This document shows positions 1,838-25,268 of a stretch of 54,270 bases of DNA, one piece after another. Below the pieces are notes generated by a model. That model did no database searches, was not told the origin of the DNA, and worked only from the letters and a program-made list of their open reading frames with translations. The position numbers and the translations under genes were made by a program. Each line of letters begins with the position of its first letter. The first letter of the stretch is position 1. Source of the DNA: an uncultured Methanosarcinales archaeon (GTDB taxonomy: Archaea > Nanobdellota > Nanobdellia > Woesearchaeales > GW2011-AR9); NCBI GenBank assembly GCA_964439765.1, contig CAYTOG010000001.1, forward strand, positions 1-54,270, read 5' to 3'.

Positions 1838-1930
1838 ATGTTCTATGAATTGCTTGGTGCCATTGTTCTTGGTATTCTTTCAGGTATTTTTACAGGCTTC
1901 TTCAACGCAAATTCAAAGATTGGATACTGA
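1838..1930 (+). pseudogene. Displaced, truncated N-terminus of a TctA/DUF112-like membrane protein gene (30 codons)
   Basis: Translates to MFYELLGAIVLGILSGIFTGFF-NANSKIGY*. The first 22 residues share 13 identities with the N-terminus of the 12124..13329 protein (MFVEILIAILLGVSAGTFTGLF-PGIHVN). Similarity stops exactly after codon 22. Confidence 0.6.
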
Positions 1931-1936: not shown

Positions 1937-1976
1937 AGTTTGTTAACAAACTGTTATACAACACTTCGTAGTGTTG
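1937..1976. promoter_or_regulatory. Two adjacent palindromes (candidate operator / recombination-directionality site) at the left end of element 1
   Basis: Perfect 16-bp palindrome AGTTTGTTAACAAACT (1937-1952), followed by CAACACT-tcgt-AGTGTTG (1959-1976). The ACACT-N4-AGTGT motif recurs at 11028-11041. Confidence 0.45.
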
Positions 1977-1996
1977 GTATAAATTGGAGACAAACT

Positions 1997-2488
1997 ATGA
2001 CATACTATATGAGAGTCGGAAACTGGAGAATAAGACGGAACGGAAGGAAAATCAATCTATTTGACATGGTTAAAGAGATTCGAAATGACCTCAAAGCCCT
2101 TGTTCCAGAATTATCTATGGATGGTGAGACTGTTCCAAATGATGTATTGATACCTCTCTTGAGCAAGATACGAACTTATTATCGTCACAAGAAGAAAGGT
2201 GTTCCACTTGGAAGAAAAGGTAGCAAGGGCTATAGGGATTTGACTCATGTAGAGAGAATTATCTTTGATTACATGATTCGAAATAAATTGAATCCTTGCA
2301 CCACATATAGATGGTTCATAGCTTCACGAGTTCCTGCTGATTTAATGGAAGAACTCAAAGAAGGAAAGATGAGTCAAAAGATGGCGATGAAACTTGCTGC
2401 TGCAAGGAAGAGAGATAAAGAAAGTGCTGTTGGACTTTACATCATGGAAGAAATCAGAAGCTTTGTTAAAAACATGAAATGGATTTGA
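1997..2488 (+). CDS. Hypothetical basic protein (element 1)
   Basis: ORF taken from the first ATG (1997), which lies downstream of the palindromes. The tracked 1940 start is TTG and sits inside the palindrome. No recognisable motif. Confidence 0.5.
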   Translation: MTYYMRVGNWRIRRNGRKINLFDMVKEIRNDLKALVPELSMDGETVPNDVLIPLLSKIRTYYRHKKKGVPLGRKGSKGYRDLTHVERIIFDYMIRNKLNPCTTYRWFIASRVPADLMEELKEGKMSQKMAMKLAAARKRDKESAVGLYIMEEIRSFVKNMKWI

Positions 2489-2943
2489 AAATGAAACAAG
2501 ACTATAATCAGGAAATTGAACTTTATGCTTTTGATAGTATGAACAATCTTTCTGATGAAAACATTGCATACATCAAGAAACTGTTAAAGAAAAACAACAC
2601 TTATGTGAAAAAGGATAGATGTTTCTTGAATGCAAAAAAGCTTGCTTTATTCTCAAGAGGAATCATTTCTTATGCTGAAGGATTTATTGCAATCAATGGC
2701 AATACAATAAAACATGCTTGGAACATCATTGAAGGAAAGCCATTTGACATTTCAAGAGATTCAACATTAACAAAGAAACTTCCAGAAAAGTATGAAGGAG
2801 TTATCATTCCGTATTCTTTACTCAAGAAACATTTCCAAGAACATGCTTATTCTGGAATGGTTGAGGAATTACTTGAATCATTCATTAGATGGAGAAAGGA
2901 GGTAGAGGAATTTGAGCGAAATAGAAAAAGACAAGACCAATAA
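2479..2943 (+). CDS. Hypothetical protein (element 1)
   Basis: 154-aa ORF that overlaps the previous stop by 10 nt, an operon-like arrangement. No recognisable motif. Confidence 0.5.
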   Translation: MDLKMKQDYNQEIELYAFDSMNNLSDENIAYIKKLLKKNNTYVKKDRCFLNAKKLALFSRGIISYAEGFIAINGNTIKHAWNIIEGKPFDISRDSTLTKKLPEKYEGVIIPYSLLKKHFQEHAYSGMVEELLESFIRWRKEVEEFERNRKRQDQ

Positions 2944-2956
2944 AATCATCATTGCA

Positions 2957-3988
2957 ATGAACAAAGCTTTGAAAGAGAAGAGACTTGGTCAAAGACAGTT
3001 GTATGAAGTCCTTCTGAGTCAGAAAGTTATAGCACCAAACTCTGAAAAAGATTTCAAGAAAATCTTTGAATGGGCAGTTGACAATAACTATGTAGACAAG
3101 AATCGATTGAAAAGAAAAGGAAAGAAAAGAGGGAAGCTTCCAAAGTATTTCACAAAAGACCAACTCATTAAAATCTTTGATGCCGTTGACAGACCAAAAG
3201 ATGCTGTTGCTTGTTATCTTGCTCTGGTTGCAGGACTCAGAATAAATGAAGTATGCAATCTACAAGTTGAAGACATTGATTTCAAGAGAGGAGAACTCAG
3301 AGTTGTTGATAGTAAAAATCCAAATAGGGGGATTGATAATTATGGAACTGATAGAATTGTTCCCTTTCCAGCATGTGTTCAAAATCCAGTCAAGGCTTGG
3401 ATTGATTACATTGGCGAAACAAGTAAATGGGTAATTCCTTCTGATAAAACTCCTGACAAACCTTTGAGAAAAAAATCATTACATGAAAGATTCAGAGGTT
3501 ATCTCAAACAAGCAGGATTACTTCAAGTTGATTATACAATTGAAGTTACTCAGAAAGTCAATGGAAATAAGATTACAAAGAAAGTTGATAGGCACAAATA
3601 CTACTTTCATTGTTTCAGACATACAGCAGGAAGTAAAGTTCAGAATGACCATAATGATGTTGCTTTAACTCAAGCTTTCTTAGGTCACAAACAAATTGAT
3701 ACAACAATGGTGTATGCAAAACTTACTCCAACAAGAGCAAAGAAAGCAATAGGTCAAACATGGTCGAGCAATGAGTATGAATACAAAAATGGACAACTCA
3801 AAGTTCCAGCACAAAAGCAAGAAGTAGTTGAAAAGGAAGTTGTAAAAGAAAAACCAACTGATAGAACAAAAGACATGCTTCTCGCTGAACAACAAAGAAT
3901 CATTCAAGAGATGGGTAAAGGTAACATTACAAGAGATGAATGTCAAAGAATGTTAAATGACATCAAAGAAGTTTCAGGCTTCATTTGA
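2957..3988 (+). CDS. Tyrosine recombinase / integrase (XerC/D-phage integrase family)
   Basis: Catalytic-signature-like motifs: 'GLRINEVCNL' (Arg I), 'HCFRHTAGS' (H-x-x-R) and 'LGHKQIDTTMVYAKL' (His + nucleophile Tyr). The first ATG is at 2957; the tracked 2912 start is TTG. Confidence 0.9.
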   Translation: MNKALKEKRLGQRQLYEVLLSQKVIAPNSEKDFKKIFEWAVDNNYVDKNRLKRKGKKRGKLPKYFTKDQLIKIFDAVDRPKDAVACYLALVAGLRINEVCNLQVEDIDFKRGELRVVDSKNPNRGIDNYGTDRIVPFPACVQNPVKAWIDYIGETSKWVIPSDKTPDKPLRKKSLHERFRGYLKQAGLLQVDYTIEVTQKVNGNKITKKVDRHKYYFHCFRHTAGSKVQNDHNDVALTQAFLGHKQIDTTMVYAKLTPTRAKKAIGQTWSSNEYEYKNGQLKVPAQKQEVVEKEVVKEKPTDRTKDMLLAEQQRIIQEMGKGNITRDECQRMLNDIKEVSGFI

Positions 3989-4004
3989 GATAAACTATGA
4001 TAAA

Positions 4005-4568
4005 ATGCAAGTAGCCATTTATGCAAGGGTGTCAACTACTGAACAGAATGTTGACATGCAAATAGAAGAACTCAGAAATTATTGCAATAGAATGCAGTAT
4101 TTAATCTATGAGGAGTATGTTGATGTAGGAGTGAGTGGAGCAAAGCAATCAAGACCTCAATTCAATGAGTTATTATCTGACATGAGAAAGAAGAAGTTTG
4201 ATGCAATCCTTGTATGGAAGCTTGACAGAATTGGAAGAAGCCTTCAGCATTTGCTTCACATCATGCAAGAGCTTCAACACAAAGGTATTGGCTTCATTTC
4301 CTACAATCAAAACATAGACACTACAACGCCTTCTGGAAAGCTCTTATTTCAGATAATGGGGGCATTTGCTGAGTTTGAAAGGGAAATCATCAGAGAACGT
4401 GTAAAGGCAGGAAAAGCCAAATCCAAGCTCAAACAAGGCAGAAAATCGCTCAAAATCAACAAATCAGAGGTTTTGAGGCTCAGAAAAGAGGGAAAGAGCC
4501 TTCGAGAGATAGGAAATCTGCTGAATGTCAGCTATGGAACTATTCGTAATTTAATAGTTACCACTTGA
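4005..4568 (+). CDS. Serine recombinase (resolvase/invertase type) with C-terminal HTH
   Basis: 'VAIYARVSTTEQNVDMQ' is the classic catalytic-Ser N-terminus; also 'ILVWKLDRIGRS'. The C-terminal 'GKSLREIGNLLNVSYGTIRN' looks like an HTH. The ATG at 4005 gives the canonical MQVAIYARVS start. Confidence 0.9.
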   Translation: MQVAIYARVSTTEQNVDMQIEELRNYCNRMQYLIYEEYVDVGVSGAKQSRPQFNELLSDMRKKKFDAILVWKLDRIGRSLQHLLHIMQELQHKGIGFISYNQNIDTTTPSGKLLFQIMGAFAEFEREIIRERVKAGKAKSKLKQGRKSLKINKSEVLRLRKEGKSLREIGNLLNVSYGTIRNLIVTT

Positions 4569-4664
4569 AAGTTAAGAAACAACCGAAAGGTTTATAAAGG
4601 TGCTGTGTTTCTCACTTATAAATACATAGTATAATCGATTATAATTACATGAGGTTAACCAAAA

Positions 4665-5867
4665 ATGGCAAAAAAACAAAACGTTTCAGAAGGACAGATG
4701 TTCTTTCATTCAGAAATTCTTGATGCTTATAGACTTGCAAGAGATTTTGCAGGAGAAGAAGGTAGAGTGGCTACAATGCCTGAAGTTATTGAAGCAAAAG
4801 CTGTAGCTGATGCATGGAGTCCAGTATGGACAAAGTATCTCATTACATCTTCTGGAGAATTTTATGGAAAATCAAAAGCAGGAAATCCTATTGTTGTTGT
4901 AGCACATGGCATTGATGGAGTCTTAAATGATGAAGGAATTATAGCTCATTCTACAAGAGATTTGAGAGAAAATAGTTACATTCAATTAACACCTGAGCAA
5001 TTTAGGGCAATAGAAGATGGAAAATTTGGAGATGCTACTGTTCTTGACCATGCACAAGTTGTTGGTATGAGACAATACCCTTCTTCAGTATTAAGCTTTG
5101 ATCAAGCTATGGAAGAGCCATTGCTTAGAGCAAGACTTGGTGGAAGCATGGAAGCATTCTTAAAAAAGCATAAAGAGATTACTCAAAAGGAATCTGGAAA
5201 CGATTATGTTTTAACAAATGACCATAGGTATCCATACATGAGAGATGGAGATTTATACACAGGAGGTTTACTTCACATTGGACAATTATGTAATGTTGGA
5301 AGATGTGGTGGAGAGCCAAGCAGTGTATCAAGCGAAGTTGATGTTGCAGACCTTGCAAGTGCAGGCAGGTTTATTGCAGTTCTTGGAAATGGAAAACTGG
5401 GAAAAGTAGGAGATGGTCTTGAACCAATACTTTCAAACCTTGGTGAAAACTGGGAAAAAATTGCAGTTCCAAATGAAGGAAATGGTCAGTCAATGTATAC
5501 TTTAATGCAAGTTGGAGATGAAACTTTCGTAATGTATGAAAAGGAAGGTGCAAGATTAGATTCAGGACTTCCAAAACACCATGTTGTTTCACTTAAACCA
5601 GTTAATGGAGAAATGCAATTCCAAACAACTGTTGGCGGTTATCATGGATTCTTCAAATACGGAATTGATGAAGTCCAAGCTTTAGCTCCTGAAGGTGCAA
5701 ACGCTTATAGGATGGGAGAACCTCAAAATGTTTGGGAAGGCGGAAATCCAGTTGCACAAGTTGCACCAATTCAGTTTTATAGAGCTGAAGTAGATACAAG
5801 CAAAAGAATTCTTCAACCTGAAGAAGTCAAAAAAGACGTAGGTCTTGTAAGACAGCTTGTTAAATAA
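4665..5867 (+). CDS. Hypothetical 400-aa protein, compositionally distinct cargo of element 1
   Basis: Long ORF preceded by a GAGGT-containing leader. Gly/Ala/Val-rich. One 60-nt line (5281-5340) spot-counts 26 G+C, against 19 in a backbone line (38221-38280). No motif recognised. Confidence 0.55.
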   Translation: MAKKQNVSEGQMFFHSEILDAYRLARDFAGEEGRVATMPEVIEAKAVADAWSPVWTKYLITSSGEFYGKSKAGNPIVVVAHGIDGVLNDEGIIAHSTRDLRENSYIQLTPEQFRAIEDGKFGDATVLDHAQVVGMRQYPSSVLSFDQAMEEPLLRARLGGSMEAFLKKHKEITQKESGNDYVLTNDHRYPYMRDGDLYTGGLLHIGQLCNVGRCGGEPSSVSSEVDVADLASAGRFIAVLGNGKLGKVGDGLEPILSNLGENWEKIAVPNEGNGQSMYTLMQVGDETFVMYEKEGARLDSGLPKHHVVSLKPVNGEMQFQTTVGGYHGFFKYGIDEVQALAPEGANAYRMGEPQNVWEGGNPVAQVAPIQFYRAEVDTSKRILQPEEVKKDVGLVRQLVK

Positions 5868-5938
5868 TTTTTAATTTTTTTAAAACTTCTTTCTTTATAA
5901 ATAAAACAATTAAATGCAATAGAAGGTATTTTTTAACA

Positions 5939-6205
5939 CTACTTTATCTCTCCAATCCATTTGAGAAAGTAGATTAAACCTATAATCAGAACTGCTCCAA
6001 TGATTCCCGGAAGTCCTGCAAGCCATTCAAGGATTCCAAGCCACCAAGGAATAGCTGATTCTGCCATGAGTTCAACACCTTCTTCAACATGAGTAATGTT
6101 TCCCGGGTCTTGACTGCTTTTCCAAGTCAGTTTCATTATACCAAAAAGAGTTGGAACTACAAATAGAACAAATACTACAAGAATCGCTATCTCTTTCGCT
6201 TTCAT
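5939..6205 (-). CDS. Small membrane protein (two predicted TM helices)
   Basis: The 88-aa product has two hydrophobic stretches (IAILVVFVLFVVPTLFGI and GLPGIIGAVLIIGLIYFL). It is the last gene of the leftward operon, after TerL. Confidence 0.5.
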   Translation of the reverse strand: MKAKEIAILVVFVLFVVPTLFGIMKLTWKSSQDPGNITHVEEGVELMAESAIPWWLGILEWLAGLPGIIGAVLIIGLIYFLKWIGEIK

Positions 6206-6242: not shown

Positions 6243-7808
6243 TCAAATCAGGCTTCCACCACCTGAATCCCATCTACTACTTCTCTTTGCAGCCCATACC
6301 GCATAGTTTAAAGCATCACAGAAATCATCAGATGATTGGCTCAAATGAAAGAGTTTAGTCTTTCCTGAAGCAGTTATTTGATACTGAAACATTCGTAGTT
6401 CGAACTGAAGTTTTTGATGGTTCTTTGGAATGATTATTTGCTCATTCTCCATTCTTTTCTTCAGGTTATTGTAGGCTTCTTCTTTATTGTCTATTGTTGG
6501 TTTGAAGTATTCAACAGGCAAATCGTTCTCTTTGAGTTTCTCACATGCAGGAATAGATAATCCAGCCCATTCAGCAATGATGGTTCTGAATCTGTATCTT
6601 TGATGCAGTTTGATGATGTATGCTATTTGTTCTGAGAATGGTTTATTGTGTAACTCAATAATGTTTTCTACTTTGATAAACTCATCCTCTTCAGATACTA
6701 TGACAAATACTGATGAGTCATGTATTCTTCCCCAATCTATTCCCATAAAGTATCTCTTTGAGTTATCTGGAAAGTCATGAAGTGAATACTCTTTACTTAC
6801 TTTCTGAAGTAATTCAACTGAAAAGAAGTTATCAAGACTTTGCTTGAACTGAGCAAGAATCTCTTGTTCATAAACATGGATTGGCATCAATGCTTTCTGT
6901 TCTTCAAGCCAGTTGCTATCAATGAACTTGTTTCTTGAGGAAGGAATCTGCATTGTAGTAAAGAGTGATGAGTTAAAGCTTTCATAGAACTTGTTGTTCA
7001 CTCCATTTGGACTGCTAATGAGAATCATACTTCCGTATGTTCCTGTTCGTTCATTCTTTATGCTGAGCATTGGTTCTATTGAAGCAAAGACTTGCTCTGG
7101 ATTAACAAAGAATGCTGCTTCATCACATACAACAAAGTCAACATTCTGAAATCCTCTGATAAATGTGGTTGATGGAAGAGGTATTATCTCACTTCCATTT
7201 GAGAACTTTAACACTTCTTGATTTGAACTCTTGAAGTTTACGGAGTTAAACAGGTCATCATTCTGTGCTATGAACTCATGAATCTTGTTAAATAGTAACT
7301 TTGATTGTCTTTCCGTTGGTGAGATAATCAATTGTCTTTGGTTTGGATTGACAATGCTATTGTAAATCAGAAAGATAGCAACAGTAAATGATTTACCCGT
7401 TCCTCTTCCAGCACAGATACAAACTCTTTTCTTTGTTCTGAAATGCTCAAGCATTTCTTCTTGATAATCTTGAACATCAACCTTCAGTAAATCCAATGCA
7501 AACTTCTTTGGATTACCAATCCAGCTATGAAGTTGCTCATCTGAGAAAAAGAAATCTTTATTGGAATCAGAAATCCTTTCAAGACCTTGAAGTTGCATCA
7601 AACGAATAGCAAGATTATCATTTGACCTCTTTGAGTATGATGTAGGTTTTCCTGCAGAGGATTTCTTTACAGCCAAGTTATTCCTTGACATCACCATCCT
7701 GATGTTCTGTGGAGATGTATCAAAGTGTGCAGCAATAAAAGAGATGGACTTACCACTGTCTATGAGTTCTTTAATCAATTCTATGTCCTGTTTATTCCAT
7801 CTCGCCAT
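6243..7808 (-). CDS. terL: Terminase large subunit-like ATPase-nuclease with N-terminal HTH
   Basis: Walker A 'CAGRGTGKS', Walker B 'DFVVCDEAAFF' and coupling motif 'LISSPNG'. The C-terminal RNase-H-like nuclease acidic residues are 'GIDWGRIHDSS' and 'SSDDFCDALNYA'. The N-terminal 'GKSISFIAAHFDTSPQNIRMV' looks like an HTH. Confidence 0.8.
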   Translation of the reverse strand: MARWNKQDIELIKELIDSGKSISFIAAHFDTSPQNIRMVMSRNNLAVKKSSAGKPTSYSKRSNDNLAIRLMQLQGLERISDSNKDFFFSDEQLHSWIGNPKKFALDLLKVDVQDYQEEMLEHFRTKKRVCICAGRGTGKSFTVAIFLIYNSIVNPNQRQLIISPTERQSKLLFNKIHEFIAQNDDLFNSVNFKSSNQEVLKFSNGSEIIPLPSTTFIRGFQNVDFVVCDEAAFFVNPEQVFASIEPMLSIKNERTGTYGSMILISSPNGVNNKFYESFNSSLFTTMQIPSSRNKFIDSNWLEEQKALMPIHVYEQEILAQFKQSLDNFFSVELLQKVSKEYSLHDFPDNSKRYFMGIDWGRIHDSSVFVIVSEEDEFIKVENIIELHNKPFSEQIAYIIKLHQRYRFRTIIAEWAGLSIPACEKLKENDLPVEYFKPTIDNKEEAYNNLKKRMENEQIIIPKNHQKLQFELRMFQYQITASGKTKLFHLSQSSDDFCDALNYAVWAAKRSSRWDSGGGSLI

Positions 7809-7850
7809 TTTGTTACACTTTGTTATAGATTTATTGTTACAAATAACAAG

Positions 7851-9476
7851 TCAGTTTTTTCTGCAAGTGACCTCTTGATTTGCATCAAGAAAGAGATAGT
7901 CCATGTCTATGAGTTTGTCAACTCTTTCATCTCCAAACTCATCTTTGAGTTTCTCAACATTGATGCTGATACGATTCTGCATGAAATTGATAACTTCTTG
8001 CAAGTCATTATCAAGAACATACTCTTCTATTACTTCAAGTTCTTGTGAACCTTGCATTAACTTCTCATCTTGCTTTAAGACTTCTTTCCCTTGTTTTTCA
8101 AGGTTTGATGCCTTTTCGTTGTCTTTGTGAATTAAACTTCTCAACTTCTCACAAGTTACTGCTTGAGCAGTAATCTTTCTGTATAAATCTTCAAGAGTCA
8201 GTGTTTTTATGAAATTTTGAGAAGTTGAACTATCTATGTGTGTTAATAACTTGTTTATCGACTGTTTAAGCTCTTCTATAGTGAAATCTTGTTTTGAGAA
8301 GTTAATGAGAAGTTGTGACAAGTTATGAAAAGCTTGCCATTCATACTTGTTACTATAACCTTCAACCTTCCTGCTATCAACATAACCTTTACCTTTCATT
8401 TCATGCAAGGCTCTTGCAACTGTAGCTCTACTCATCTGAATGTCTGGATTCTCAACTATAGAATCAACACTCATCCATTCCTGACTTGTTAAAACTGCGA
8501 GTATCTTTTGATTGGATTCTCTCACATGCAAGTGTTCCATTCTATTGACTTTATCCCAAACCAACTTGGCAACTTCATAATCATCAAATGTAGAAACATA
8601 GTAATCTTTGACTTTCTCTCTTTGAAATCTGAAAGCATAAGTTACACATCTGATAAACGACAAGAACTTTGGAAAGCTTCGTCTATTGCTCTTTCTTGAT
8701 GGCTGAATCAAGTGAGCAAATGGAATAAAGACTTTGATTGGAGATTCTTTGATTAAATCAGTGAGTGCTTGTGCTACTTTGAAATCTTCAAGTTCTTTGA
8801 TTTCATCTCCACCAAAAGCAAGTTTATCTATTTGATGTTCATACACTATATGGTCTTGAGTCTTTGACTCATCAACATTAAACATTATGTATCGATTGCA
8901 GAGCTGTCCTTCATCATCTTCAGGAGTATTGACACTGTTTCTCCATACACTGTTGATTTCCTTGATTTCTATTCTTTTGAACTTCCCTTCTTTATCCACT
9001 GTTTCATGGCTTGGACTATCTCCACTCATATCTGTGTAAACTCTTTCAAGTGCTTGAGCATCTTTACTGTTTTCTGCTTCATCAAAGATTAAGATGCCTT
9101 TGTCAATCATTGCTCCCTTCTCTGATTTGTAGAACTGGCTTTTTGCACTTGAAGATGTTATTCTCTGGACTTTATTGAATGATTTGGAAGTGCTGTCCAT
9201 AACAGCAGTTTTTCCTTTCCCACTGCTTCCAACAGCCATAGTGTGTATAGTAAATTGTCTTTTGTATAAACCTGAACTTAAACCAGATAATAGAAGTAAC
9301 AAGATTGAGTCTTTCTCCCTACTGTGAATCTTTGCAACTGTTTCAACCAAGAACAGTAAAGGATTGCTATTCTTTGCAATCTTTTCAGCTTTATCCTTGT
9401 GAAATTCAGTGTAAGGTTTTGGAGAAGGTTTTGGCTCTTTCATCTCCTTTTTTACTTTATCAAGTCCTTTACTCAT
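7851..9476 (-). CDS. P-loop replicative helicase-like ATPase with C-terminal winged-helix
   Basis: Walker A 'GSSGKGKTAV' and Walker B 'ILIFDEAEN'. 'NRYIMFNVDESKTQ' parallels 'NRFIVVNVDETHEQ' in the element-2 protein. C-terminal 'MSRATVARALHEMKGKGYV'. The ATG at 9476 forms an ATGA overlap with the upstream primase stop. Confidence 0.75.
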   Translation of the reverse strand: MSKGLDKVKKEMKEPKPSPKPYTEFHKDKAEKIAKNSNPLLFLVETVAKIHSREKDSILLLLLSGLSSGLYKRQFTIHTMAVGSSGKGKTAVMDSTSKSFNKVQRITSSSAKSQFYKSEKGAMIDKGILIFDEAENSKDAQALERVYTDMSGDSPSHETVDKEGKFKRIEIKEINSVWRNSVNTPEDDEGQLCNRYIMFNVDESKTQDHIVYEHQIDKLAFGGDEIKELEDFKVAQALTDLIKESPIKVFIPFAHLIQPSRKSNRRSFPKFLSFIRCVTYAFRFQREKVKDYYVSTFDDYEVAKLVWDKVNRMEHLHVRESNQKILAVLTSQEWMSVDSIVENPDIQMSRATVARALHEMKGKGYVDSRKVEGYSNKYEWQAFHNLSQLLINFSKQDFTIEELKQSINKLLTHIDSSTSQNFIKTLTLEDLYRKITAQAVTCEKLRSLIHKDNEKASNLEKQGKEVLKQDEKLMQGSQELEVIEEYVLDNDLQEVINFMQNRISINVEKLKDEFGDERVDKLIDMDYLFLDANQEVTCRKN

Positions 9477-9985
9477 GCTGAAGCCCTCACCATAGTTTTC
9501 TTTATTCCAGTCTTCCAATGAGGACTCTCTTCCATAGCAATCATGCATTTATCAGATTTCTTCATTCCATCACAACCAAACTTCTGAATCAAGAATGCTC
9601 TGATAGCTTCTCTTTCATACCTTGAATGAAAAGCAAGTTCTTTGACATAGATGTGGATGTGAAAACCTCTTGAACCAGTAAAGTAAGCTTTATACTGAAA
9701 AGCATAGTCTTCTATGTTGTCACAAATCCAATGCAGATAGTCTTCACTGATTCTTTCATCTACATCAAGAACAATTTCACAAGGCAAGATTTCTCTATTG
9801 TCAACTCTTTCAAGAAATCGAAGACCTTCATCACTATGCCAACAGTCAAGAACACATCTCCAAGAACAAAACCCTTTTGAGCCATCTTTTCGTTTGTATG
9901 TGCAGGTTACTCTGAAATCACCCCATCTATTACATAGGTCTTGAAGATAGGCAACTTTGTGTTTAGGCAAGGTTTCACAAAACAT
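9473..9985 (-). CDS. Archaeo-eukaryotic primase (AEP / prim-pol) domain protein
   Basis: Motif I 'VLDVDE' and motif II 'GSRGFHIHIY'. 'MIAMEESPHWKTG' parallels 'MIAKENAPHWKIL' in the element-2 fusion protein. The start is taken at the internal ATG (9985), because the upstream part of the tracked ORF overlaps a better small ORF. Confidence 0.75.
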   Translation of the reverse strand: MFCETLPKHKVAYLQDLCNRWGDFRVTCTYKRKDGSKGFCSWRCVLDCWHSDEGLRFLERVDNREILPCEIVLDVDERISEDYLHWICDNIEDYAFQYKAYFTGSRGFHIHIYVKELAFHSRYEREAIRAFLIQKFGCDGMKKSDKCMIAMEESPHWKTGIKKTMVRASA

Positions 9986-10142
9986 CTTCAGAATCCTCAC
10001 GAATTGATTTAATTTGGTCTTTGTTGATGTGAAAGATAGTTCCATCTGGCATTTTAATTTTAACAAAGCCCCCTTTATCTTCAATGATTGTTCCTTTGAG
10101 GGCTTTGATTGTTCCAGAATCATCCCAAACTATTTTGTCCAT
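9975..10142 (-). CDS. Small 55-aa protein (not in ORF track), apparently translationally coupled to the primase
   Basis: Manual translation gives MDKIVWDDSGTIKALKGTIIEDKGGFVKIKMPDGTIFHINKDQIKSIREDSEDVL*. Its end overlaps the primase ATG (GATGTTTTGTGA). Confidence 0.4.
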   Translation of the reverse strand: MDKIVWDDSGTIKALKGTIIEDKGGFVKIKMPDGTIFHINKDQIKSIREDSEDVL

Positions 10143-10173: not shown

Positions 10174-10590
10174 TTATACCCATTCGTTATCTGAGTTTAA
10201 TTTCTTCCACTCGTTATCAACAAATGCATGGACTTCATAGCTTTCTTTGTCTCTTTCTTTCATCCCATCAGCTATGTGAGAAATCTTGAGTTTGACTCCT
10301 GTCCCCATCTCTGTATTGAGTTTCTGAAAGATTTGTCGTATTTTTCCCCATACAGTCCAAGCTCTGACAGAATAAACTTTGTTTTCAACATCATAGATGT
10401 CAATCCCGAAATCTACACTTGAAAGTTTTTTATCAAACTTCTTTCCATCTTTACCTACAACAACTGTGTCAGTATTTTTCTTCACTCCTTTTACAATTAT
10501 TTCAATACTCTCTCCAACCTTTGGATGAGAGATGTATTTGTTCTCAGTGATGTCGCTCACTTTATCAAATTGTTCTTCATTTCCATTCAT
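10174..10590 (-). CDS. Hypothetical protein (beta-rich; possible OB-fold/ssDNA-binding, unverified)
   Basis: 138-aa ORF in the replication operon, between the RHH genes and the primase. No diagnostic motif. Confidence 0.45.
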   Translation of the reverse strand: MNGNEEQFDKVSDITENKYISHPKVGESIEIIVKGVKKNTDTVVVGKDGKKFDKKLSSVDFGIDIYDVENKVYSVRAWTVWGKIRQIFQKLNTEMGTGVKLKISHIADGMKERDKESYEVHAFVDNEWKKLNSDNEWV

Positions 10591-10591
10591 T

Positions 10592-10843
10592 TTATTTTTC
10601 CTCCTGTATTTTTTTCTTTAACATCTCTTCATGTAGAAGAGCATGAATCTGATTTGTTGCTGAATAAATCTCTCTGATTTGCTGTTCAGTTGATAATGAG
10701 TAGAGAAGTCTATGCCGAAGCCATTGGCTCATATTATGAAAGCCATCTGCTTCCATCTTGTTTTGCAGAAGTATTTTTTCTTGAGTAGAAACTCTTGTTA
10801 CAATTACTTCTTTCTGACTGCCTTTTCTGATTTTACTTTGCAT
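10592..10843 (-). CDS. Ribbon-helix-helix-like DNA-binding protein
   Basis: 'EVIVTRVSTQEKILLQNKMEADGFHNMSQWLRHRLL' fits a beta-strand followed by two helices. Confidence 0.5.
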   Translation of the reverse strand: MQSKIRKGSQKEVIVTRVSTQEKILLQNKMEADGFHNMSQWLRHRLLYSLSTEQQIREIYSATNQIHALLHEEMLKKKIQEEK

Positions 10844-10992
10844 AGTTTATCCACCAAAACATCATTTATCATAGCATGAAGCAAATTACTGACTGTCCTA
10901 TTCTGAGATTTCGCCATCTCTCGAAACTTTGCAGCTTGTGTTATAGTCACAAGAGTCTGCAACTTTACATCTCGTAGTTCGTTTGCTTGCAT
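10804..10992 (-). CDS. Ribbon-helix-helix (CopG/Arc-like) regulator, first gene of the leftward operon
   Basis: 'LVTITQAAKFREMAKSQNRTVSNLLHAMINDVL' fits the RHH pattern. The gene sits next to the palindromic sites at 11028-11062. Confidence 0.55.
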   Translation of the reverse strand: MQANELRDVKLQTLVTITQAAKFREMAKSQNRTVSNLLHAMINDVLVDKLCKVKSEKAVRKK

Positions 10993-11089: not shown

Positions 11090-11911
11090 ATGTTATACTA
11101 TAGTATGACCTATCAGTTTGTTGAACAAAAGGAAATAAAGGTAGTTACCAAGAATCAAGGTGCTACATGTAATGTGAACATTCCAAAATACATGCTTGTA
11201 GGTCTACGTTGGTTAAATCCTCATCTTGCAAAAGAGCAAATACCTGTGTTTGTTCGAGTATTGCCTGAGTTTGGTGAGATTGTGATAAGCCATAGAGAAG
11301 TGAAACCTTCTGATTTGTCTGACTTTCTCATGTTTGGTTATGCTGTTCCAAAAAACAATCCTATTCGAAAGATTGTAGATGATGATAAACAAGAGTTTAA
11401 TGATGCTGTTTGGATGGCAAGTGAAGATAAAATCAAAGAGAGAACTCAAAGGGTAATTGATGCAAAGAAAGAACATCTTGCTCAACTTGATGCAATGGAG
11501 AAAGACTATGCTTCAAAGATAAAGATGGTTCAAGACCATAAGAAATCATTGAAAGAAGACTTGAAGAAGTTTCCTCAGAACAAGAAGCAATGGGAACAGT
11601 TCATTAAATCTGAAAAAATCAGGTGGGGAATGTATGCAAAATACAGAGATACACGAGGCAAAAAGGATGAACATGACAGTAATTATCTTGAAGTTGGTAA
11701 AGACCACATAGAAGTAAGACATGTTCCAACAGGTCTGATTCAAGCAAAGAAAGTTAATTTGACACCTGCTCAAAAGAAAAGAATTGCTGAACAAAGAAAG
11801 ATGCTTGAGAGGGCAAAGACACCAACAAGCAAAAAGAAACGGGTATCAAAGTCCGGGAATACAAACAAGAAATCAAGAAAAACAGGGAAACAAAGGAGAA
11901 GTAATAAATGA
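11090..11911 (+). CDS. Hypothetical DNA-binding-like protein with Lys-rich coiled-coil and basic tail
   Basis: N-terminal 'CNVNIPKYMLVGLRWLN...VFVRVLPEFGEIVISH' resembles a swapped-hairpin (AbrB/SpoVT-like) 'v.iPk..l..l.w' pattern. Its architecture and position parallel 35625..36080 in element 2. Confidence 0.5.
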   Translation: MLYYSMTYQFVEQKEIKVVTKNQGATCNVNIPKYMLVGLRWLNPHLAKEQIPVFVRVLPEFGEIVISHREVKPSDLSDFLMFGYAVPKNNPIRKIVDDDKQEFNDAVWMASEDKIKERTQRVIDAKKEHLAQLDAMEKDYASKIKMVQDHKKSLKEDLKKFPQNKKQWEQFIKSEKIRWGMYAKYRDTRGKKDEHDSNYLEVGKDHIEVRHVPTGLIQAKKVNLTPAQKKRIAEQRKMLERAKTPTSKKKRVSKSGNTNKKSRKTGKQRRSNK

Positions 11912-12123: not shown

Positions 12124-13329
12124 ATGTTTGTTGAAATTTTGATTGCAATTCTGCTTGGTGTGTCCGCCGGGACATTCACTGGCCTTTTCCCAGGGATTCA
12201 TGTCAATTTAATTTCTGTTTTGGTTTTATCCTTGTCTCCTTTTCTATTGGTGTATACATCTGCTTTGATGCTTTCAGCATATATTATCTCTCTTGCAATC
12301 ACTCATTCTTTTTTAGATTCTCTACCATCAATTTATCTCGGAGCTCCTGATGAAGCTATGGCTCTTTCTGTTCTACCTGGACACAAACTATTACATCGTG
12401 GAGAAGGACACAATGCGATTGTGTGCACCATTATTGGAAGTTATGGTTGTTTAATTTGTTCTCTTTTGGTGTTTCCATTTTTTTTATTGGGGATGGCATT
12501 CATTTATCCAATAATTGACTCACTCATTGGATGGATACTGATTTTGATCATGGCAATTATGATCTTGCGAGAACGAGGGAAACGTTTGATTACACTTGTT
12601 TGTTTTTTACTTGCAGGTGCTCTTGGAATTGTTGTTCTTTCGATGGATTCACTATCGCAGCCGTTGTTTCCACTTCTTTCTGGACTCTTTGGTTTTTCTA
12701 TTATGCTTGTTAGTTTAATGCAACGCGCTGTTGTTCCTGCGCAAGATTTTGGAATAAAACTTAAATTGCCTTTTCATTCTGCTCTGCGCGCCATTGGTGC
12801 TGCAACCGGTGTTGGTTTCATTGCTGCCTTCTTACCTGGTTTTGGAAATTCACAAGCTGCGATTGTTGCAAATGAAGTTATTAAAGAAGGAGAAGCGGAA
12901 ATTTTCTTGACTCTTGTTGGAGGTATTAACACAGCTAACATGCTTATCAGTATTGGGACAATTTATGTTTTAGAGAAAGCTCGTAATGGGGCAATTGTGG
13001 CTGTAAAGGAACTTGTTGGTTTAGTTGATTTTCGAATGATGGTATTGTTTCTGGGAGTTGCATTGTTTGTTGGCAGTGTTGCATCAATTTTAACAGTGTA
13101 TCTTTCAAAAGGTTTTTCTCGTGTGATGTCTCATGTTAATTATACAGATGTGATTTTTGGGATCATATTATTGATTTGTTGTTTAACTTTTATTTTTGAT
13201 GGCTTCGTTGGTCTTCTGATTTTATTTGCTGCAACGTGTGTTGGTTTGCTTGCAAGTTTCTTTGCTGTTGGGAAGAATCATCTAATGGGAAGTTTGATTA
13301 TCCCAGTTATTTTGTATTTTGTTTTGTGA
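12124..13329 (+). CDS. Polytopic membrane protein, TctA/DUF112-like
   Basis: 401 aa, hydrophobic almost throughout. N-terminal 'GVSAGTFTGLFPGIHVN' resembles the G-x-x-x-G-x-(l/f)PG start of TctA-family permeases. The family assignment is tentative. Confidence 0.5.
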   Translation: MFVEILIAILLGVSAGTFTGLFPGIHVNLISVLVLSLSPFLLVYTSALMLSAYIISLAITHSFLDSLPSIYLGAPDEAMALSVLPGHKLLHRGEGHNAIVCTIIGSYGCLICSLLVFPFFLLGMAFIYPIIDSLIGWILILIMAIMILRERGKRLITLVCFLLAGALGIVVLSMDSLSQPLFPLLSGLFGFSIMLVSLMQRAVVPAQDFGIKLKLPFHSALRAIGAATGVGFIAAFLPGFGNSQAAIVANEVIKEGEAEIFLTLVGGINTANMLISIGTIYVLEKARNGAIVAVKELVGLVDFRMMVLFLGVALFVGSVASILTVYLSKGFSRVMSHVNYTDVIFGIILLICCLTFIFDGFVGLLILFAATCVGLLASFFAVGKNHLMGSLIIPVILYFVL

Positions 13330-13383: not shown

Positions 13384-14091
13384 ATGGGCATTAGAAAAAT
13401 TAAGAATGTTGAATTAAATGAGATTACTTCCTATTTAGCAGGAGTTATTATTGGTGATGGCCATATTTCAAATTCAACCAAATCAAAAATTGATTTGTCT
13501 CCAGATTATAGAATTACAATTGAACTTGTAGATAAGAGATATTTACAAGAGATCGTTGCCCTTATAAGGAAAGTGGTGACAACTAAAAGTAAGATCATTA
13601 CTAGAGTAAGACCAACAAAAAAGTGCGAGCACTATTATTTTCAATTTAGAAATAAAAGTTTTTACTATTTTTTAACTAAAGATCTTTTAATACCTTCTGG
13701 AAAGAAAAGTGGAATTGTGTTTATACCCACTCCTATTCTCAATGACTCTATACTTATTTCCCACTTTCTTGCTGGTCTTTTTGATACAGATGGAGGAATA
13801 CGTGGGAAAACAATTGGATTTACTTCTAAAAGTGAAATATTAATTATTCAAACACATAACTCGTTGTACAATTTAGGGATACACTCTTCGAAAGATTCTT
13901 GGGTTCATAGAAAATATAATCAAAGATATTTTGGACTACATATTCATAAAGAATCTGTAGATACCTTTTTAAATACGGTTCCAGTCAGAAATAAAGCTAA
14001 ACTATTGAAATCACACCGTCATGTGGACGTGCCGGAGTGGTCAAACGGGCTGGAAGATAGTAACAAAAAGGTACTATCTGGCTTTGCTTAG
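13384..14091 (+). CDS. LAGLIDADG homing endonuclease (double-motif, monomeric type)
   Basis: Two LAGLIDADG motifs, 'LAGVIIGDGHI' and 'LAGLFDTDGGI', lie ~110 aa apart. The 3' end of the ORF overlaps tRNA-Leu by 69 nt. Confidence 0.85.
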   Translation: MGIRKIKNVELNEITSYLAGVIIGDGHISNSTKSKIDLSPDYRITIELVDKRYLQEIVALIRKVVTTKSKIITRVRPTKKCEHYYFQFRNKSFYYFLTKDLLIPSGKKSGIVFIPTPILNDSILISHFLAGLFDTDGGIRGKTIGFTSKSEILIIQTHNSLYNLGIHSSKDSWVHRKYNQRYFGLHIHKESVDTFLNTVPVRNKAKLLKSHRHVDVPEWSNGLEDSNKKVLSGFA

Positions 14092-23947: not shown

Positions 23948-25144
23948 ATGCAAGAAGAAAAGCACAAGAAGAACTATTTTAGGTATTTGAAAAAACTTGA
24001 AGAAGGTCGCTGCTGCAAATATCAACTCAACAGAGAGTTGATTCTACGCTTTCTAAAAGACTGTGAGATGGGTAAAACTATCCTCAAAGGTCAGAAGAAA
24101 AAGATTGGTTATGGGCGGTTATCACGCCTTGCAGGGCTGCTTGTCAAGATGGACACGGCGTGGTTAAAAGTCGAGTTGGACAAAGTAACACAAGAACAGA
24201 TGGATTCCTTCATTCTAAACTTAGAGAGGGGATTAATAACACACAATGGAAACCCATACACTTCAGAAACTCAAAAGACAATGAAGAAAGTAGTACGCAA
24301 ATTCTACAAATGGCTATTTGGGAACAATGAAACATATCCCGCGCTGGTGCGTTACATTGACACTTCTGGTCCAATCCCAGAGATCAAAGCCATTTTGAAA
24401 GATGATGTGGATCGAATGATTTCTGGTACTGGCAGTCTTGCACATAAGTTTCTGATTGCAACTCTTTTTGATTCTGGTGCTCGTGCACAAGAATATTTCA
24501 ATCTGAAGATAAAAGACATTGCGTTTACTGGTGAGTATTACCAAATTCGAATAAGTAAATCCAAGACCAAACCACGAACCATCAGTTTGCCATTGTACAC
24601 AGATTTGATTAAAGAATACTTAGAATGGCACCCACAGAAAGAGAATTCTAATGCAGCACTAAGTGTTCACCATTATGATAGCGCTAAGAAGATACTGAAG
24701 AGAGTTGCAGCAAAAACTCTTAGTGTAAATGTGTACTGCCACAAACTGCGGCACAGCTCTGCTACATTCTACGCTAATCATCTGACACATTACCAAATGT
24801 GCAATCGCTATGGCTGGGCTATGAGTTCTGATATGCCTAATCGTTACATTGACTTCGCAGGAATTAGAGAGCAGGAAACTGCAGCAAAGATTATGGCACA
24901 TCAAGGACAGAAGCAAATGAAAGAGCAGAGCGTGCTGCGTTCAGAGCTGGACATTATGAAGCAGACGCTATTAGAAATGAAAAACCAAGAAGAACTTCGA
25001 CGTAAAGAACAAGACCTGCACAATGAGTTGTTTAAGAAATTATCAAGCTATGATAATAAAGATGGACTGACTGATGTGCGAGAGATGTTATATCAAATAT
25101 TGAAAAAAGACAATGCACTTGTAGATAAATTAAGGCAATTTTGA
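23948..25144 (+). CDS. Tyrosine recombinase / integrase
   Basis: 'LFDSGARAQEYFNLKIKDI' (Arg I), 'HKLRHSSATFYAN' (H-x-x-R) and 'MSSDMPNRYIDF' (Tyr region). The gene abuts attL. Confidence 0.85.
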   Translation: MQEEKHKKNYFRYLKKLEEGRCCKYQLNRELILRFLKDCEMGKTILKGQKKKIGYGRLSRLAGLLVKMDTAWLKVELDKVTQEQMDSFILNLERGLITHNGNPYTSETQKTMKKVVRKFYKWLFGNNETYPALVRYIDTSGPIPEIKAILKDDVDRMISGTGSLAHKFLIATLFDSGARAQEYFNLKIKDIAFTGEYYQIRISKSKTKPRTISLPLYTDLIKEYLEWHPQKENSNAALSVHHYDSAKKILKRVAAKTLSVNVYCHKLRHSSATFYANHLTHYQMCNRYGWAMSSDMPNRYIDFAGIREQETAAKIMAHQGQKQMKEQSVLRSELDIMKQTLLEMKNQEELRRKEQDLHNELFKKLSSYDNKDGLTDVREMLYQILKKDNALVDKLRQF

Positions 25145-25165
25145 GTTATTAATGACACAAACACT

Positions 25166-25205: not shown

Positions 25206-25268
25206 CAAAGCTAAGAGAACGGTAGATGAGAAATATAATCTATTAATTTGAAGATTTAATAAAATATT

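What the first reader, a model, noticed from the sequence alone, without database searches (positions are those of the whole stretch)
6243..7808. Orphan terminase large subunit in a 10-kb element with no recognisable portal, capsid or tail genes
The 521-aa protein carries the full TerL signature set: Walker A CAGRGTGKS, Walker B VVCDEAAFF, coupling motif SSPNG, and RNase-H-type nuclease acidic motifs GIDWGRIHDSS and DDFCDALNYA. It also has an N-terminal HTH that could replace a small terminase.

The element is only ~10 kb. Its other genes are recombination, replication and regulation functions plus a few unknowns, the largest being the 400-aa, compositionally distinct ORF at 4665-5867. TerL is the penultimate gene of the replication operon that starts at the RHH genes.

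Two explanations are possible. This could be an extremely reduced head-tail-type provirus. More interestingly, it could be a satellite or PICI-like element that brings its own packaging enzyme to hijack a helper virus's capsids. I am not aware of that lifestyle being established for DPANN-type archaea.
Basis: partly seen in the sequence, partly recalled or inferred. Interest (0 to 1): 0.62.

Follow-up and report, generated by a model that had tools for sequence, protein, structure and literature searches.

The report
Capsid-less archaeal element carrying a terminase
A 10-kb mobile element integrated in a tiny (DPANN) archaeon carries an intact virus DNA-packaging enzyme but no capsid genes; about twenty similar small elements do the same, which suggests parasites that hijack the capsids of head-tailed archaeal viruses, though this is unproven.

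Summary
ORF 6243-7808(-) is a genuine, intact large terminase (TerL) by sequence, profile and predicted fold, with an N-terminal HTH domain. The ~10.3-kb element (about 1.9-12.2 kb) sits in the 5' end of a TctA transporter gene. I detected no portal or HK97 capsid gene in it. The 400-aa ORF is an AvpA-like C-type-lectin protein.

It is not a one-off. About 45 close homologues exist in DPANN archaea. In the 16-18 distinct loci examined, HTH-TerL sits in 5-12-kb elements with interchangeable replication modules, usually a wHTH gene and often an integrase. TerL is the only gene they all share.

A 95%-identical TerL lies in an unrelated element. For that pair dN/dS is 0.03 at dS 0.93. The 40 nt upstream, holding three TAACAA repeats, are 39/40 identical.

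One real head-tailed virus contig carries a related HTH-TerL (36-45% identical) followed by portal and capsid genes.

Best reading (~45%): integrated plasmid-like satellites whose self-targeting terminase packages them into helper capsids. Rivals are exaptation, interference, a selfish cassette or a relic. The relic reading is disfavoured.

The parts
1838..1930 (+). Orphan, diverged copy of the first 22 codons of the TctA gene (MFYELLGAIVLGILSGIFTGFF, then 8 unrelated codons and a stop). It marks the left junction of the element.
   Evidence: BLASTP against the protein of 12124-13329: residues 1-22 match 1-22, 59% identity, E=4e-6. DNA alignment; sequence.
1940..2488 (+). Unknown ORF.
   Evidence: ORF list. 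No hit in Pfam, PHROGs, NCBIfam or PADLOC. Too small to be a portal or HK97 capsid protein.
2479..2943 (+). Unknown ORF, 154 aa.
   Evidence: No significant family hit.
2912..3988 (+). Tyrosine recombinase (integrase), 358 aa.
   Evidence: Pfam Phage_integrase 1e-23; phrog_1 integrase 4e-36.
3957..4568 (+). Small serine recombinase (resolvase/invertase type) with a C-terminal HTH, 203 aa.
   Evidence: Pfam Resolvase 6.7e-50, HTH_38; phrog_125 4e-58.
4665..5867 (+). AvpA-like protein with a C-type-lectin fold plus a C-terminal beta-rich domain, 400 aa. It is cargo, not a capsid or portal protein.
   Evidence: phmmer against PDB 5ioo (AvpA), E=5e-9. AF2 pLDDT 90.5. Foldseek PDB gives only 5ioo_A, E=4e-12, TMt 0.75. 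Nothing below 1e-3 in BFVD. Homologues in Nanoarchaeota and Patescibacteria. No template-repeat copy in the window.
5939..6205 (-). 88-aa hydrophobic (probably two-TM) protein, last gene downstream of TerL on the same strand.
   Evidence: ORF list. No family hit. Membrane character inferred from the sequence.
6243..7808 (-). HTH-TerL. N-terminal HTH (about residues 1-45), conserved linker helix (about 65-80), ASCE ATPase (about 100-340), RNase-H-like nuclease (about 350-510).
   Evidence: dN/dS 0.031 against the L009 copy.
7809..7848 (-). Conserved 40-nt segment directly upstream of TerL, with three TAACAA direct repeats (7810-7815, 7820-7825, 7834-7839). Candidate recognition site (pac-like or operator) and/or promoter.
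   Evidence: 39/40 identical to L009 while synonymous sites of the adjoining gene are 53% different; homology stops at 7848. The only TAACAA-N3-12-TAACAA cluster in the window, expected 0.27. Related triple repeats upstream of TerL in 9 of 18 loci: 31 motif copies against 1.6 expected.
7851..9548 (-). Putative replication protein, 565 aa: P-loop (GSSGKGKT / LIFDEAE) plus a winged HTH.
   Evidence: phmmer groups it with the proteins directly upstream of TerL in L010 (607 aa, PF27228) and L027. wHTH hits at residues 342-410. No PDB sequence hit. Walker motifs read from the sequence.
9473..10123 (-). Small archaeo-eukaryotic primase (PriS-like) candidate, 216 aa.
   Evidence: NCBIfam PriS 8e-6 and Pfam DNA_primase_S 4e-4, both local and below cut-off.
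10174..10590 (-). Unknown ORF, 138 aa.
   Evidence: No hits.
10592..10992 (-). Two small probable ribbon-helix-helix regulators (83 aa at 10592-10843; 62 aa at 10804-10992) at the head of the minus-strand operon.
   Evidence: Sub-threshold NikA-like 2.8e-4, RHH_5 6e-3 and Tn5252_Orf10 2e-3.
11090..11911 (+). 273-aa lysine-rich protein, divergently transcribed. Last ORF inside the element.
   Evidence: No significant family.
12124..12189 (+). First 22 codons of the intact TctA-family transporter gene (12124-13329). Right junction and target of integration.
   Evidence: Pfam TctA 1e-43. Duplicate of 1838-1903.

Best explanation
The element at about 1.9-12.2 kb is an integrated, plasmid-like replicon. 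It has a tyrosine integrase, a serine recombinase, a P-loop/wHTH Rep, a PriS-like primase and RHH regulators. It belongs to a previously undescribed family of small DPANN-archaeal elements whose only common gene is an HTH-fused large terminase.

**Proposed mechanism (inferred)**
1. A head-tailed virus of the lineage represented by contig L006 infects the cell.
2. The element excises and replicates with its own machinery.
3. Its TerL uses the built-in HTH in place of a small terminase. It recognises the TAACAA repeat cluster next to its own gene and cuts there.
4. TerL docks on the helper's portal and pumps element DNA into helper procapsids, probably as multimers by headful packaging.

This would be a satellite that brings a complete, self-targeting packaging enzyme instead of capsid genes.

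**Shown**
- TerL identity and intact active sites.
- No detectable capsid or portal genes.
- The family-wide architecture.
- Strong purifying selection on the gene and on the upstream repeats.
- A real virus with a related HTH-TerL.

**Inferred**
- Binding of the repeats by the HTH.
- Helper dependence.
- Encapsidation.
For: 1. **TerL is complete and conserved.**
   - Profile, PDB and fold matches.
   - ATPase and nuclease catalytic residues invariant in 37 homologues.
   - dN/dS = 0.031 at dS = 0.93 between the window and L009.

2. **No detectable structural genes.**
   - None in the element or the rest of the window.
   - PHROGs does detect portal, protease and MCP in the related virus L006.

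3. **It is a family.**
   - About 45 homologues at 36-95% identity.
   - Named hosts are Iainarchaeum, Woesearchaeota and Nanohaloarchaea MAGs.
   - In 16-18 distinct loci TerL lies in 5-12-kb islands, nearly always as the last gene after a replication or wHTH gene of varied family. These are D5_N/DUF5906 helicase, PF27228/CHC2 primase-like, an approximately 520-aa family and an approximately 290-aa wHTH family.
   - Integrases lie within a few kb in many of these loci.
   - This is the int / pri-rep / packaging layout of bacterial PICI and P4-type satellites (general knowledge).

4. **Only TerL is shared among the elements**.
   - Nucleotide homology between the window and L009 is limited to the gene, 40 nt upstream and 14 nt downstream.

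5. **The upstream segment is constrained.**
   - 39/40 identical.
   - It carries three TAACAA repeats. These recur, with clade-specific variants and variable spacers, upstream of TerL across the family.

6. **A related virus exists.**
   - L006 (IMG/VR, 26 kb) encodes an HTH-TerL 36-45% identical to those of the small elements, followed by portal, protease, decoration and MCP genes.
   - L006 groups with the small-element TerLs at 92% NJ bootstrap.

7. **The HTH is DNA-binding in type.** It is of the resolvase / transposase / GcrA class.
Against: - No direct evidence of mobilisation. There are no excision or circle junctions in the two low-depth runs that hold the sequence.
- No family member other than the virus L006 was found in IMG/VR.
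- No helper provirus is present in the window.
- Only one related virus contig was found, its host is unknown, and it is only 36-45% identical. That may be too distant for portal compatibility.
- The repeats could simply be a promoter or operator.
- Several loci (L009, L001, L086, L011) show no recognisable integrase.
- A 10-kb genome would have to be packaged as multimers, or into remodelled capsids for which no gene is seen.
- In most family members the Walker B Asp is Asn. The catalytic Glu is invariant.
- The tree is neighbour-joining only, and monophyly of the small-element TerLs excluding L006 has 24% support.
Confidence: 0.45

Rival explanations
1. Exaptation. The HTH-TerL has been recruited by plasmid-like elements for a job that is not virion packaging. 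Examples are site-specific cutting and resolution of replication concatemers, or ATP-driven export of element DNA through vesicles or cell-cell contacts.
For: - TerL nearly always follows a replication gene as the last gene of that operon.
- No helper or particle evidence exists.
- In the window a small membrane protein follows TerL on the same strand.
- Many loci lack a recognisable integrase.
- Strong selection fits any function.
Against: - To my knowledge, all characterised TerLs work on a portal vertex.
- No partner protein is conserved across the elements.
- The closest relatives with known context are virus terminases, including one with the same HTH fusion.
- The downstream small genes differ between loci.
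Confidence: 0.18
2. Interference or defence. The element-borne terminase mainly sabotages an infecting head-tailed virus by competing for portals or miscutting viral concatemers. This protects the host population, with or without transfer of the element.
For: - Bacterial satellites commonly block helper packaging (general knowledge; e.g. the PLE paper listed).
- Related loci carry defence-type cargo: Cas4-like nuclease, Vsr, methylases, Mrr/SNF2 and PIN.
- TerL is related to a virus terminase.
Against: - No PADLOC model matches TerL or its neighbours.
- The conserved self-adjacent repeat cluster suggests recognition of the element's own DNA rather than viral DNA.
- This reading overlaps the satellite model rather than excluding it.
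Confidence: 0.14
3. Selfish cassette. TerL plus its 40-nt upstream site is a mobile unit of its own that inserts into diverse replicons. Its HTH and RNase-H-like nuclease would act in a homing- or transposase-like way.
For: - Homology between the window and L009 is confined to the gene plus 40 nt upstream and 14 nt downstream, inside otherwise unrelated elements.
- A Rep of the same family occurs with TerL (7851-9548, L010, L027) and without it (33460-35331).
- A partial second TerL copy lies on the same Woesearchaeota contig (L022/L024).
Against: - No terminal inverted repeats or target duplications at the cassette ends.
- dS of 0.93 shows the two copies are old, not recently moved.
- The ATPase is as conserved as the nuclease, which a homing nuclease would not need.
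- Ordinary modular recombination between elements explains the pattern.
Confidence: 0.1
4. Relic. The element is the decayed remnant of a head-tailed provirus, or a plasmid that picked up a dead terminase gene. This is how NitKor-E1 of Nitrosopumilus koreensis was interpreted.
For: - The precedent in the literature is PMC6563490.
- No structural genes remain.
Against: - dN/dS is 0.031.
- All catalytic residues are invariant in 37 full-length homologues.
- The same arrangement recurs in about 18 independent loci from several DPANN orders.
- The neighbouring non-coding repeats are conserved.
Confidence: 0.05
5. Complete minimal virus. The element encodes an unrecognised capsid and portal among its unknown ORFs.
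For: Five to six ORFs have no assignable function.
Against: - The only ORFs large enough are excluded. The 400-aa ORF has an AvpA-like fold with no capsid match in PDB or BFVD. The 565-aa ORF is a P-loop/wHTH Rep.
- No protein other than TerL is conserved across the elements, even with phmmer.
- The smallest relatives are about 5 kb.
Confidence: 0.04

Closest known systems
NitKor-E1, a cryptic integrated element of Ca. Nitrosopumilus koreensis AR1 (Krupovic et al. 2019, PMC6563490)
   Same: An archaeal integrated element with a tyrosine integrase and terminase genes but no other head-tail virus genes. The authors called its terminase 'enigmatic' and noted that terminases had not been seen in non-viral elements.
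   Different: - NitKor-E1 is a single case. It has separate TerS and TerL genes and was read as a probable relic.
- Here TerS is replaced by a fused HTH, and the element carries its own replication module.
- The arrangement recurs in about 18 loci under strong purifying selection.
- Sequence relatedness to NitKor-E1 was not tested directly. A Nitrososphaerales TerL (P0047) is only 27% identical.
Bacterial phage satellites: PICIs/SaPIs, P4-like elements and capsid-forming PICIs
   Same: Small integrated islands laid out as integrase, regulators, primase/helicase replication module and packaging function. They lack most or all structural genes and rely on a helper's capsids (general knowledge; the SatelliteFinder paper PMC10085698 is listed).
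   Different: - SaPI-type PICIs bring a small terminase and use the helper's TerL.
- P4 uses helper cos recognition.
- cf-PICIs bring TerL together with TerS, capsid, portal and connectors.
- A satellite whose sole virus-derived gene is a complete TerL with a built-in DNA-binding domain is not among the described types, as far as I know.
- Helper dependence is not shown here.
Archaeal satellites pSSVx/pSSVi, the SRCE/PL6-type elements of (nano)haloarchaea, and the putative Asgard satellite NMV2S
   Same: Plasmid-derived replicons in archaea that carry an incomplete virus morphogenetic module, in some cases just the packaging or morphogenesis ATPase, and are proposed or shown to ride in helper virions.
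   Different: - Most of those parasitise spindle-shaped viruses and carry an AAA+ ATPase and/or a spindle-virus capsid protein.
- NMV2S is associated with a head-tailed Asgard virus, but it is not described there as encoding a terminase.
- The present family carries a Duplodnaviria terminase. That implies head-tailed helpers, for which only that putative case has been reported in archaea.
TerL of head-tailed archaeal viruses (Halogranum tailed virus 1; IMG/VR contig L006)
   Same: Same two-domain enzyme and catalytic motifs. L006 shares even the N-terminal HTH extension.
   Different: In those viruses terL is followed by portal, protease and capsid genes. In the window and its relatives it is not.

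Membership tests
Large terminase subunit (TerL) of head-tailed viruses | N-terminal ASCE P-loop ATPase with Walker A, Walker B and a catalytic glutamate | tested here: met
   Walker A at residues 132-140 and Walker B at 226-234. G134, R135, K139 and E230 are invariant in 37 homologues. Terminase_6N 3.8e-12. Foldseek TMt 0.74 to the P74-26 ATPase.
Large terminase subunit (TerL) of head-tailed viruses | C-terminal RNase-H-like nuclease with a conserved acidic triad | tested here: met
   D358, E413 and D495 (plus D364 and D494) are invariant. PDB phmmer to the G20c/P74-26 nuclease, 3e-8. Foldseek TMt 0.82, rmsd 2.5 A. Pfam Terminase_6C is just below its cut-off.
Large terminase subunit (TerL) of head-tailed viruses | Encoded next to portal and HK97 capsid genes | tested here: not met
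   No portal or MCP in the element, in the window, or in about 18 related loci. The feature is met only in the virus contig L006.
Large terminase subunit (TerL) of head-tailed viruses | ATP-driven DNA translocation into procapsids and concatemer cutting | not testable with these tools
   Needs biochemistry.
Head-tailed (Caudoviricetes) provirus | HK97-fold major capsid protein and portal protein | tested here: not met
   The 400-aa ORF has an AvpA-like fold, with no capsid match in PDB or BFVD. The 565-aa ORF is a P-loop/wHTH Rep. The other ORFs are 273 aa or less with no hits. The small ORFs were not modelled.
Virus satellite (PICI/P4-like lifestyle) | Own integration and replication modules, no structural genes | tested here: met
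   Integrase, serine recombinase, Rep and PriS-like primase. No detectable structural genes (as above).
Virus satellite (PICI/P4-like lifestyle) | A gene product that redirects helper packaging to satellite DNA | tested here: inconclusive
   The HTH-TerL and the adjacent conserved repeats fit this role. Binding and redirection were not shown.
Virus satellite (PICI/P4-like lifestyle) | Helper-dependent induction and encapsidation in helper virions | tested here: inconclusive
   No junction reads in two low-depth runs. No family member in IMG/VR apart from the virus L006. Neither test has the power to exclude it.
NitKor-E1-type cryptic integrated element with a terminase | Integrated non-viral element with an integrase, whose only Caudoviricetes-like genes are terminase genes | tested here: met
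NitKor-E1-type cryptic integrated element with a terminase | Separate TerS gene immediately upstream of TerL | tested here: not met
   The upstream gene is a 565-aa Rep. The DNA-binding function is a fused HTH.
DGR variable protein (AvpA type), for ORF 4665-5867 only | C-type-lectin fold | tested here: met
DGR variable protein (AvpA type), for ORF 4665-5867 only | Nearby template repeat and reverse transcriptase | tested here: not met
   No repeat of any part of the gene in the 54-kb window. No RT appeared among the ORFs scanned, but not every ORF was scanned.

The most novel reading that the evidence does not exclude
A widespread family of DPANN-archaeal integrated replicons uses a single self-targeting enzyme, an HTH-fused large terminase with a cognate repeat site beside its gene, as its only tool to get packaged into the capsids of head-tailed helper viruses. 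These would be the first satellites of archaeal head-tailed viruses beyond one putative Asgard case, and a hijacking strategy (bring the whole motor, nothing else) not described in bacteria either.
Probability: 0.4. Interest if true: 0.85.

Novelty: new variant of a known kind. Interest (0 to 1): 0.72.

Why it matters
- **A viral hallmark in a non-viral setting.** Terminases are treated as hallmark genes that flag a head-tailed virus. The one archaeal exception on record was dismissed as a relic. Here a terminase is the conserved core of a whole family of capsid-less elements in several DPANN lineages, and it is kept under strong selection.
- **A missing layer of parasitism.** If these are satellites, they add that layer to DPANN archaea, which are themselves symbionts. 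They would also reveal a minimal packaging-piracy design.
- **A practical warning.** TerL-based provirus calling will over-call viruses in these genomes.
- **If the enzyme has another role.** It would be the first terminase working outside a virion.
- **Testability.** Either way, the HTH-TerL plus its 40-nt site is a compact system that can be tested directly.

Tried and rejected
- **att repeats.** Generic and boundary-focused repeat searches found no convincing att-type direct repeat. The boundaries came instead from the duplicated 5' end of the TctA gene. A 21-nt inverted pair at 1751/11889 is within chance for AT-rich DNA.
- **tRNA target.** There is no tRNA near the element.
- **Excision evidence.** Two runs hold the region, only as low-depth contigs. 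No joints were found.
- **DGR hypothesis for the 400-aa ORF.** There is no template-repeat copy in the window.
- **Defence-system membership.** There are no PADLOC hits for TerL or its neighbours.
- **More helper-like viruses.** An IMG/VR scan with the L006 TerL returned only L006. A scan with the family alignment returned only distant viruses at about 25% identity.
- **Small flanking genes as hidden integrases or capsids.** The small flanking genes of the integrase-less relatives gave nothing interpretable in Pfam.
- **Technical failures.** The 37-sequence alignment was too divergent for locus search. One background script timed out. One run request was a base too long.
- **'Compositionally distinct' 400-aa ORF.** This is not borne out at the nucleotide level.
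Full report
**1. The observation**

ORF 6243-7808 on the minus strand is 521 aa and starts with ATG.

It matches the main PHROG terminase family over residues 91-510 (phrog_2, E=8e-45). It also matches Pfam Terminase_6N (3.8e-12). Terminase_6C is just below its cut-off.

Sequence search of the PDB hits both halves separately. The ATPase half hits T4 gp17 and P74-26. The nuclease half hits G20c and P74-26.

An AlphaFold2 model built on 37 homologues has pLDDT 85.4. Its first 42 Foldseek hits in the PDB are all phage large terminases: T4 gp17 E=9e-24, P74-26 ATPase TMt 0.74, G20c nuclease TMt 0.82. The best hit among deposited phage genomes is the TerL of the archaeal Halogranum tailed virus 1 (30.6% identity, E=4e-45).

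Residues 1-100 lie outside that alignment. They are a tri-helical HTH of the resolvase / transposase / GcrA / sigma-70-r4 type. The evidence is weak per sequence but consistent over 19 family members.

**2. The element and its limits**

The first 22 codons of the TctA-family transporter gene at 12124-13329 (Pfam 1e-43) reappear in diverged form at 1838-1903. The copy is in the same orientation and is followed by a stop. The match is 59% identical, E=4e-6.

This is the footprint of integration into the 5' end of that gene. It sets the element at roughly 1.9-12.2 kb, about 10.3 kb.

The plus strand carries:
- two unknown ORFs
- a tyrosine integrase (2912-3988)
- a small serine recombinase (3957-4568)
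- the 400-aa ORF

The minus strand carries:
- two probable RHH regulators (sub-threshold hits only)
- a 138-aa unknown ORF
- a PriS-like primase candidate (9473-10123)
- a 565-aa P-loop/wHTH protein (7851-9548)
- TerL
- an 88-aa hydrophobic protein

A 273-aa lysine-rich ORF (11090-11911) closes the element.

The host is a DPANN archaeon. Its alanyl-tRNA synthetase is closest to sequences labelled Woesearchaeota or Nanoarchaeota (54% identity to named ones, 74% to unnamed ones).

**3. No detectable capsid or portal**

None of the element's proteins hits a structural family in Pfam, PHROGs or NCBIfam.

The 400-aa ORF was the only capsid-sized unknown. Its N-terminal half matches AvpA, the C-type-lectin variable protein of a nanoarchaeal diversity-generating retroelement (PDB 5ioo, E=5e-9). 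A confident model (pLDDT 90.5) finds only 5ioo in the PDB (E=4e-12, TMt 0.75). It finds nothing below 1e-3 among predicted viral structures. Its homologues are in Nanoarchaeota and Patescibacteria.

The 565-aa ORF has Walker A and B motifs and a winged HTH. It groups by phmmer with the primase-like plasmid replication proteins that precede TerL in L010 and L027.

The ten largest other ORFs in the window give no portal or capsid hit.

As a positive control, the same library recognises portal (5e-41), protease and MCP (2e-9) in the related virus contig L006.

**4. It is a family**

The large protein database holds about 45 homologues at 36-95% identity, all about 520-570 aa. After that there is a gap to ordinary virus terminases at 32% identity or less. 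Genome and metagenome scans place them in Iainarchaeum (Diapherotrites), Woesearchaeota, Nanohaloarchaea and unclassified archaeal MAGs.

I examined 16-18 distinct loci. In every one TerL lies in a small island of about 5-12 kb between ordinary host genes.

TerL is nearly always the last gene after a replication-type or DNA-binding gene. Four or more unrelated families fill that position:
- D5_N/DUF5906 helicase
- PF27228/CHC2 primase-like protein
- an approximately 520-aa family
- an approximately 290-aa wHTH family

A 75-90-aa winged-helix gene and an integrase are often within a few kb. Some relatives are as small as about 5 kb (L009, L086).

By BLAST and by phmmer, TerL is the only protein common to all these elements.

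The window also holds a second island at 23.9-36.1 kb, next to tRNA-Gln. Its Rep belongs to the same family but has no TerL.

**5. Selection and the portable module**

The TerL of locus L009 is 95% identical in protein and 87% in DNA. Homology runs only from 40 nt upstream of the start codon to 14 nt past the stop. Everything else in the two elements is unrelated.

For this pair dS = 0.93, dN = 0.029 and dN/dS = 0.031. The copies are therefore old and under strong purifying selection.

Across 37 homologues the Walker A lysine, the catalytic glutamate and the nuclease acidic residues are invariant.

The 40 upstream nucleotides are 39/40 identical although half the synonymous sites in the gene differ. 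They contain three TAACAA direct repeats. This is the only such cluster in the 54-kb window (expected 0.27).

Equivalent triplets lie in the 50 nt before TerL in 9 of 18 loci. They read TAACA or ATAACA in some clades and GGTAATA or GTAACAG in another. Where close relatives can be compared, the spacers vary while the repeats stay the same.

The motif [GA]TAA[CT]A occurs 31 times in these 18 upstream segments against 1.6 expected. That test is inflated, because the motif was chosen after the fact and some loci are related.

The segment is a functional cis-element. Whether it is a promoter or operator, or a recognition site for the TerL HTH, cannot be told from sequence.

**6. A related real virus**

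IMG/VR contig L006 (26 kb) encodes an HTH-TerL that is 36-45% identical to the small-element proteins. It carries an extra insert of about 300 aa, probably an intein. Portal, protease, decoration and major capsid genes follow it.

In a neighbour-joining tree it groups with the small-element TerLs at 92% bootstrap. Whether it is sister to them or nested among them is unresolved (24%).

The next relatives are:
- a Methanomassiliicoccaceae locus, again without recognisable structural genes
- ordinary proviruses with capsid genes

**7. What it most likely is**

The gene content copies the layout of bacterial phage satellites: integrase, regulators, own primase/helicase, plus a single virus-derived packaging function. 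The difference is that the packaging function is a whole terminase with its own DNA-binding domain, rather than a small terminase.

The simplest model uses all the conserved features: both enzyme activities, the HTH, the adjacent repeats, and the kinship to a virus terminase with the same fusion. In that model the element packages itself into the procapsids of a head-tailed helper.

I put this at about 45%. The rivals are:
- exaptation for a non-virion DNA-processing or export role, about 18%
- a mainly interfering or defensive role, about 14%, overlapping the satellite model
- a self-mobile TerL cassette, about 10%
- a relic, about 5%
- a complete virus with a hidden capsid, about 4%

The relic reading was given to the only published precedent, NitKor-E1 of Nitrosopumilus koreensis (PMC6563490). 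It is hard to keep here in the face of dN/dS 0.03 and about 18 independent occurrences.

**8. What is missing**

Nothing shows mobilisation:
- The two public runs that hold the sequence are shallow and show no excision joints.
- No small element of the family is in IMG/VR.
- No helper provirus is present in the window.
- The one related virus has no assigned host.

**9. Known and new**

Archaeal satellites described so far mostly ride spindle-shaped viruses: pSSVx, pSSVi and the SRCE elements. One putative Asgard satellite, NMV2S, is associated with a head-tailed virus but is not reported to encode a terminase.

Bacterial satellites either lack TerL or, in the capsid-forming PICIs, carry it together with capsid and portal genes (general knowledge).

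A recurrent TerL-only element is therefore a new variant of a known kind. The lifestyle remains to be demonstrated.

Noticed in passing
window 23948-36180: A second integrated island. It holds a tyrosine integrase (23948-25144), an HATPase_c_3 protein resembling a type II REase (25851-28139), an Ltp lipoprotein, a GNAT acetyltransferase and a wHTH gene (31380-31631) similar to genes in the TerL elements. It also holds a 623-aa CHC2-zinc-finger Rep (33460-35331) homologous to the Rep upstream of TerL in L010. It ends at tRNA-Gln (36107-36180) and has no TerL.
   Followed up: partly
window 4148-5871: Single contigs in runs X1 and X2 diverge from the window at 4148 or 4681 and rejoin at 5863 or 5871. 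In part of the population the AvpA-like gene seems to be replaced by other sequence, so it may be a variable cargo slot.
   Followed up: no
window 4665-5867: An AvpA-like C-type-lectin protein sits inside a mobile element with no template repeat or reverse transcriptase nearby. Full-length homologues exist in both DPANN archaea and Patescibacteria at about 30% identity.
   Followed up: partly
window 13384-14091: A free-standing LAGLIDADG homing-endonuclease-like ORF (235 aa) lies just downstream of the TctA gene into which the element is inserted.
   Followed up: no
L006 4435-5364 (within TerL ORF 2854-5364): The virus TerL is 836 aa. About 300 extra residues near the C-terminus hit PHROGs that also occur in helicases and polymerases. 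That is the pattern of an intein.
   Followed up: no
L021 5820-10932; L023 6786-13282; L043 1897-5462: In gammaproteobacterial MAGs a distant TerL (26-27% identical) sits in an analogous arrangement: a primase-polymerase of about 780 aa, two small genes, TerL, then (in L023 and L043) a large serine recombinase. This may be a bacterial counterpart or a capsid-forming satellite. The other genes were not annotated.
   Followed up: partly
L022 9992-11557 and L024 10016-10549 (same contig CAYUWX010000004.1): A Woesearchaeota contig carries a full TerL and, about 15 kb away, a fragment matching only TerL residues 434-513.
   Followed up: no
alignment A2, column of window residue D229: In most family members the Walker B aspartate is asparagine (consensus NEA instead of DEA). 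The following catalytic glutamate is invariant. The window protein keeps DE.
   Followed up: no
L009 11631-15532 and L011 12748-16702: Two different TerL elements (TerLs 41% identical) sit beside the same host gene cluster (DAGK_cat, DUF3419, epimerase, UbiA) in different genomes. This may be a shared insertion hotspot.
   Followed up: no
window 42007-43161 and 52346-53335: Two apparently chromosomal ORFs give strong hits to PHROGs of unknown function: phrog_15344 at 3e-60 and phrog_15334 at 1.5e-25.
   Followed up: no
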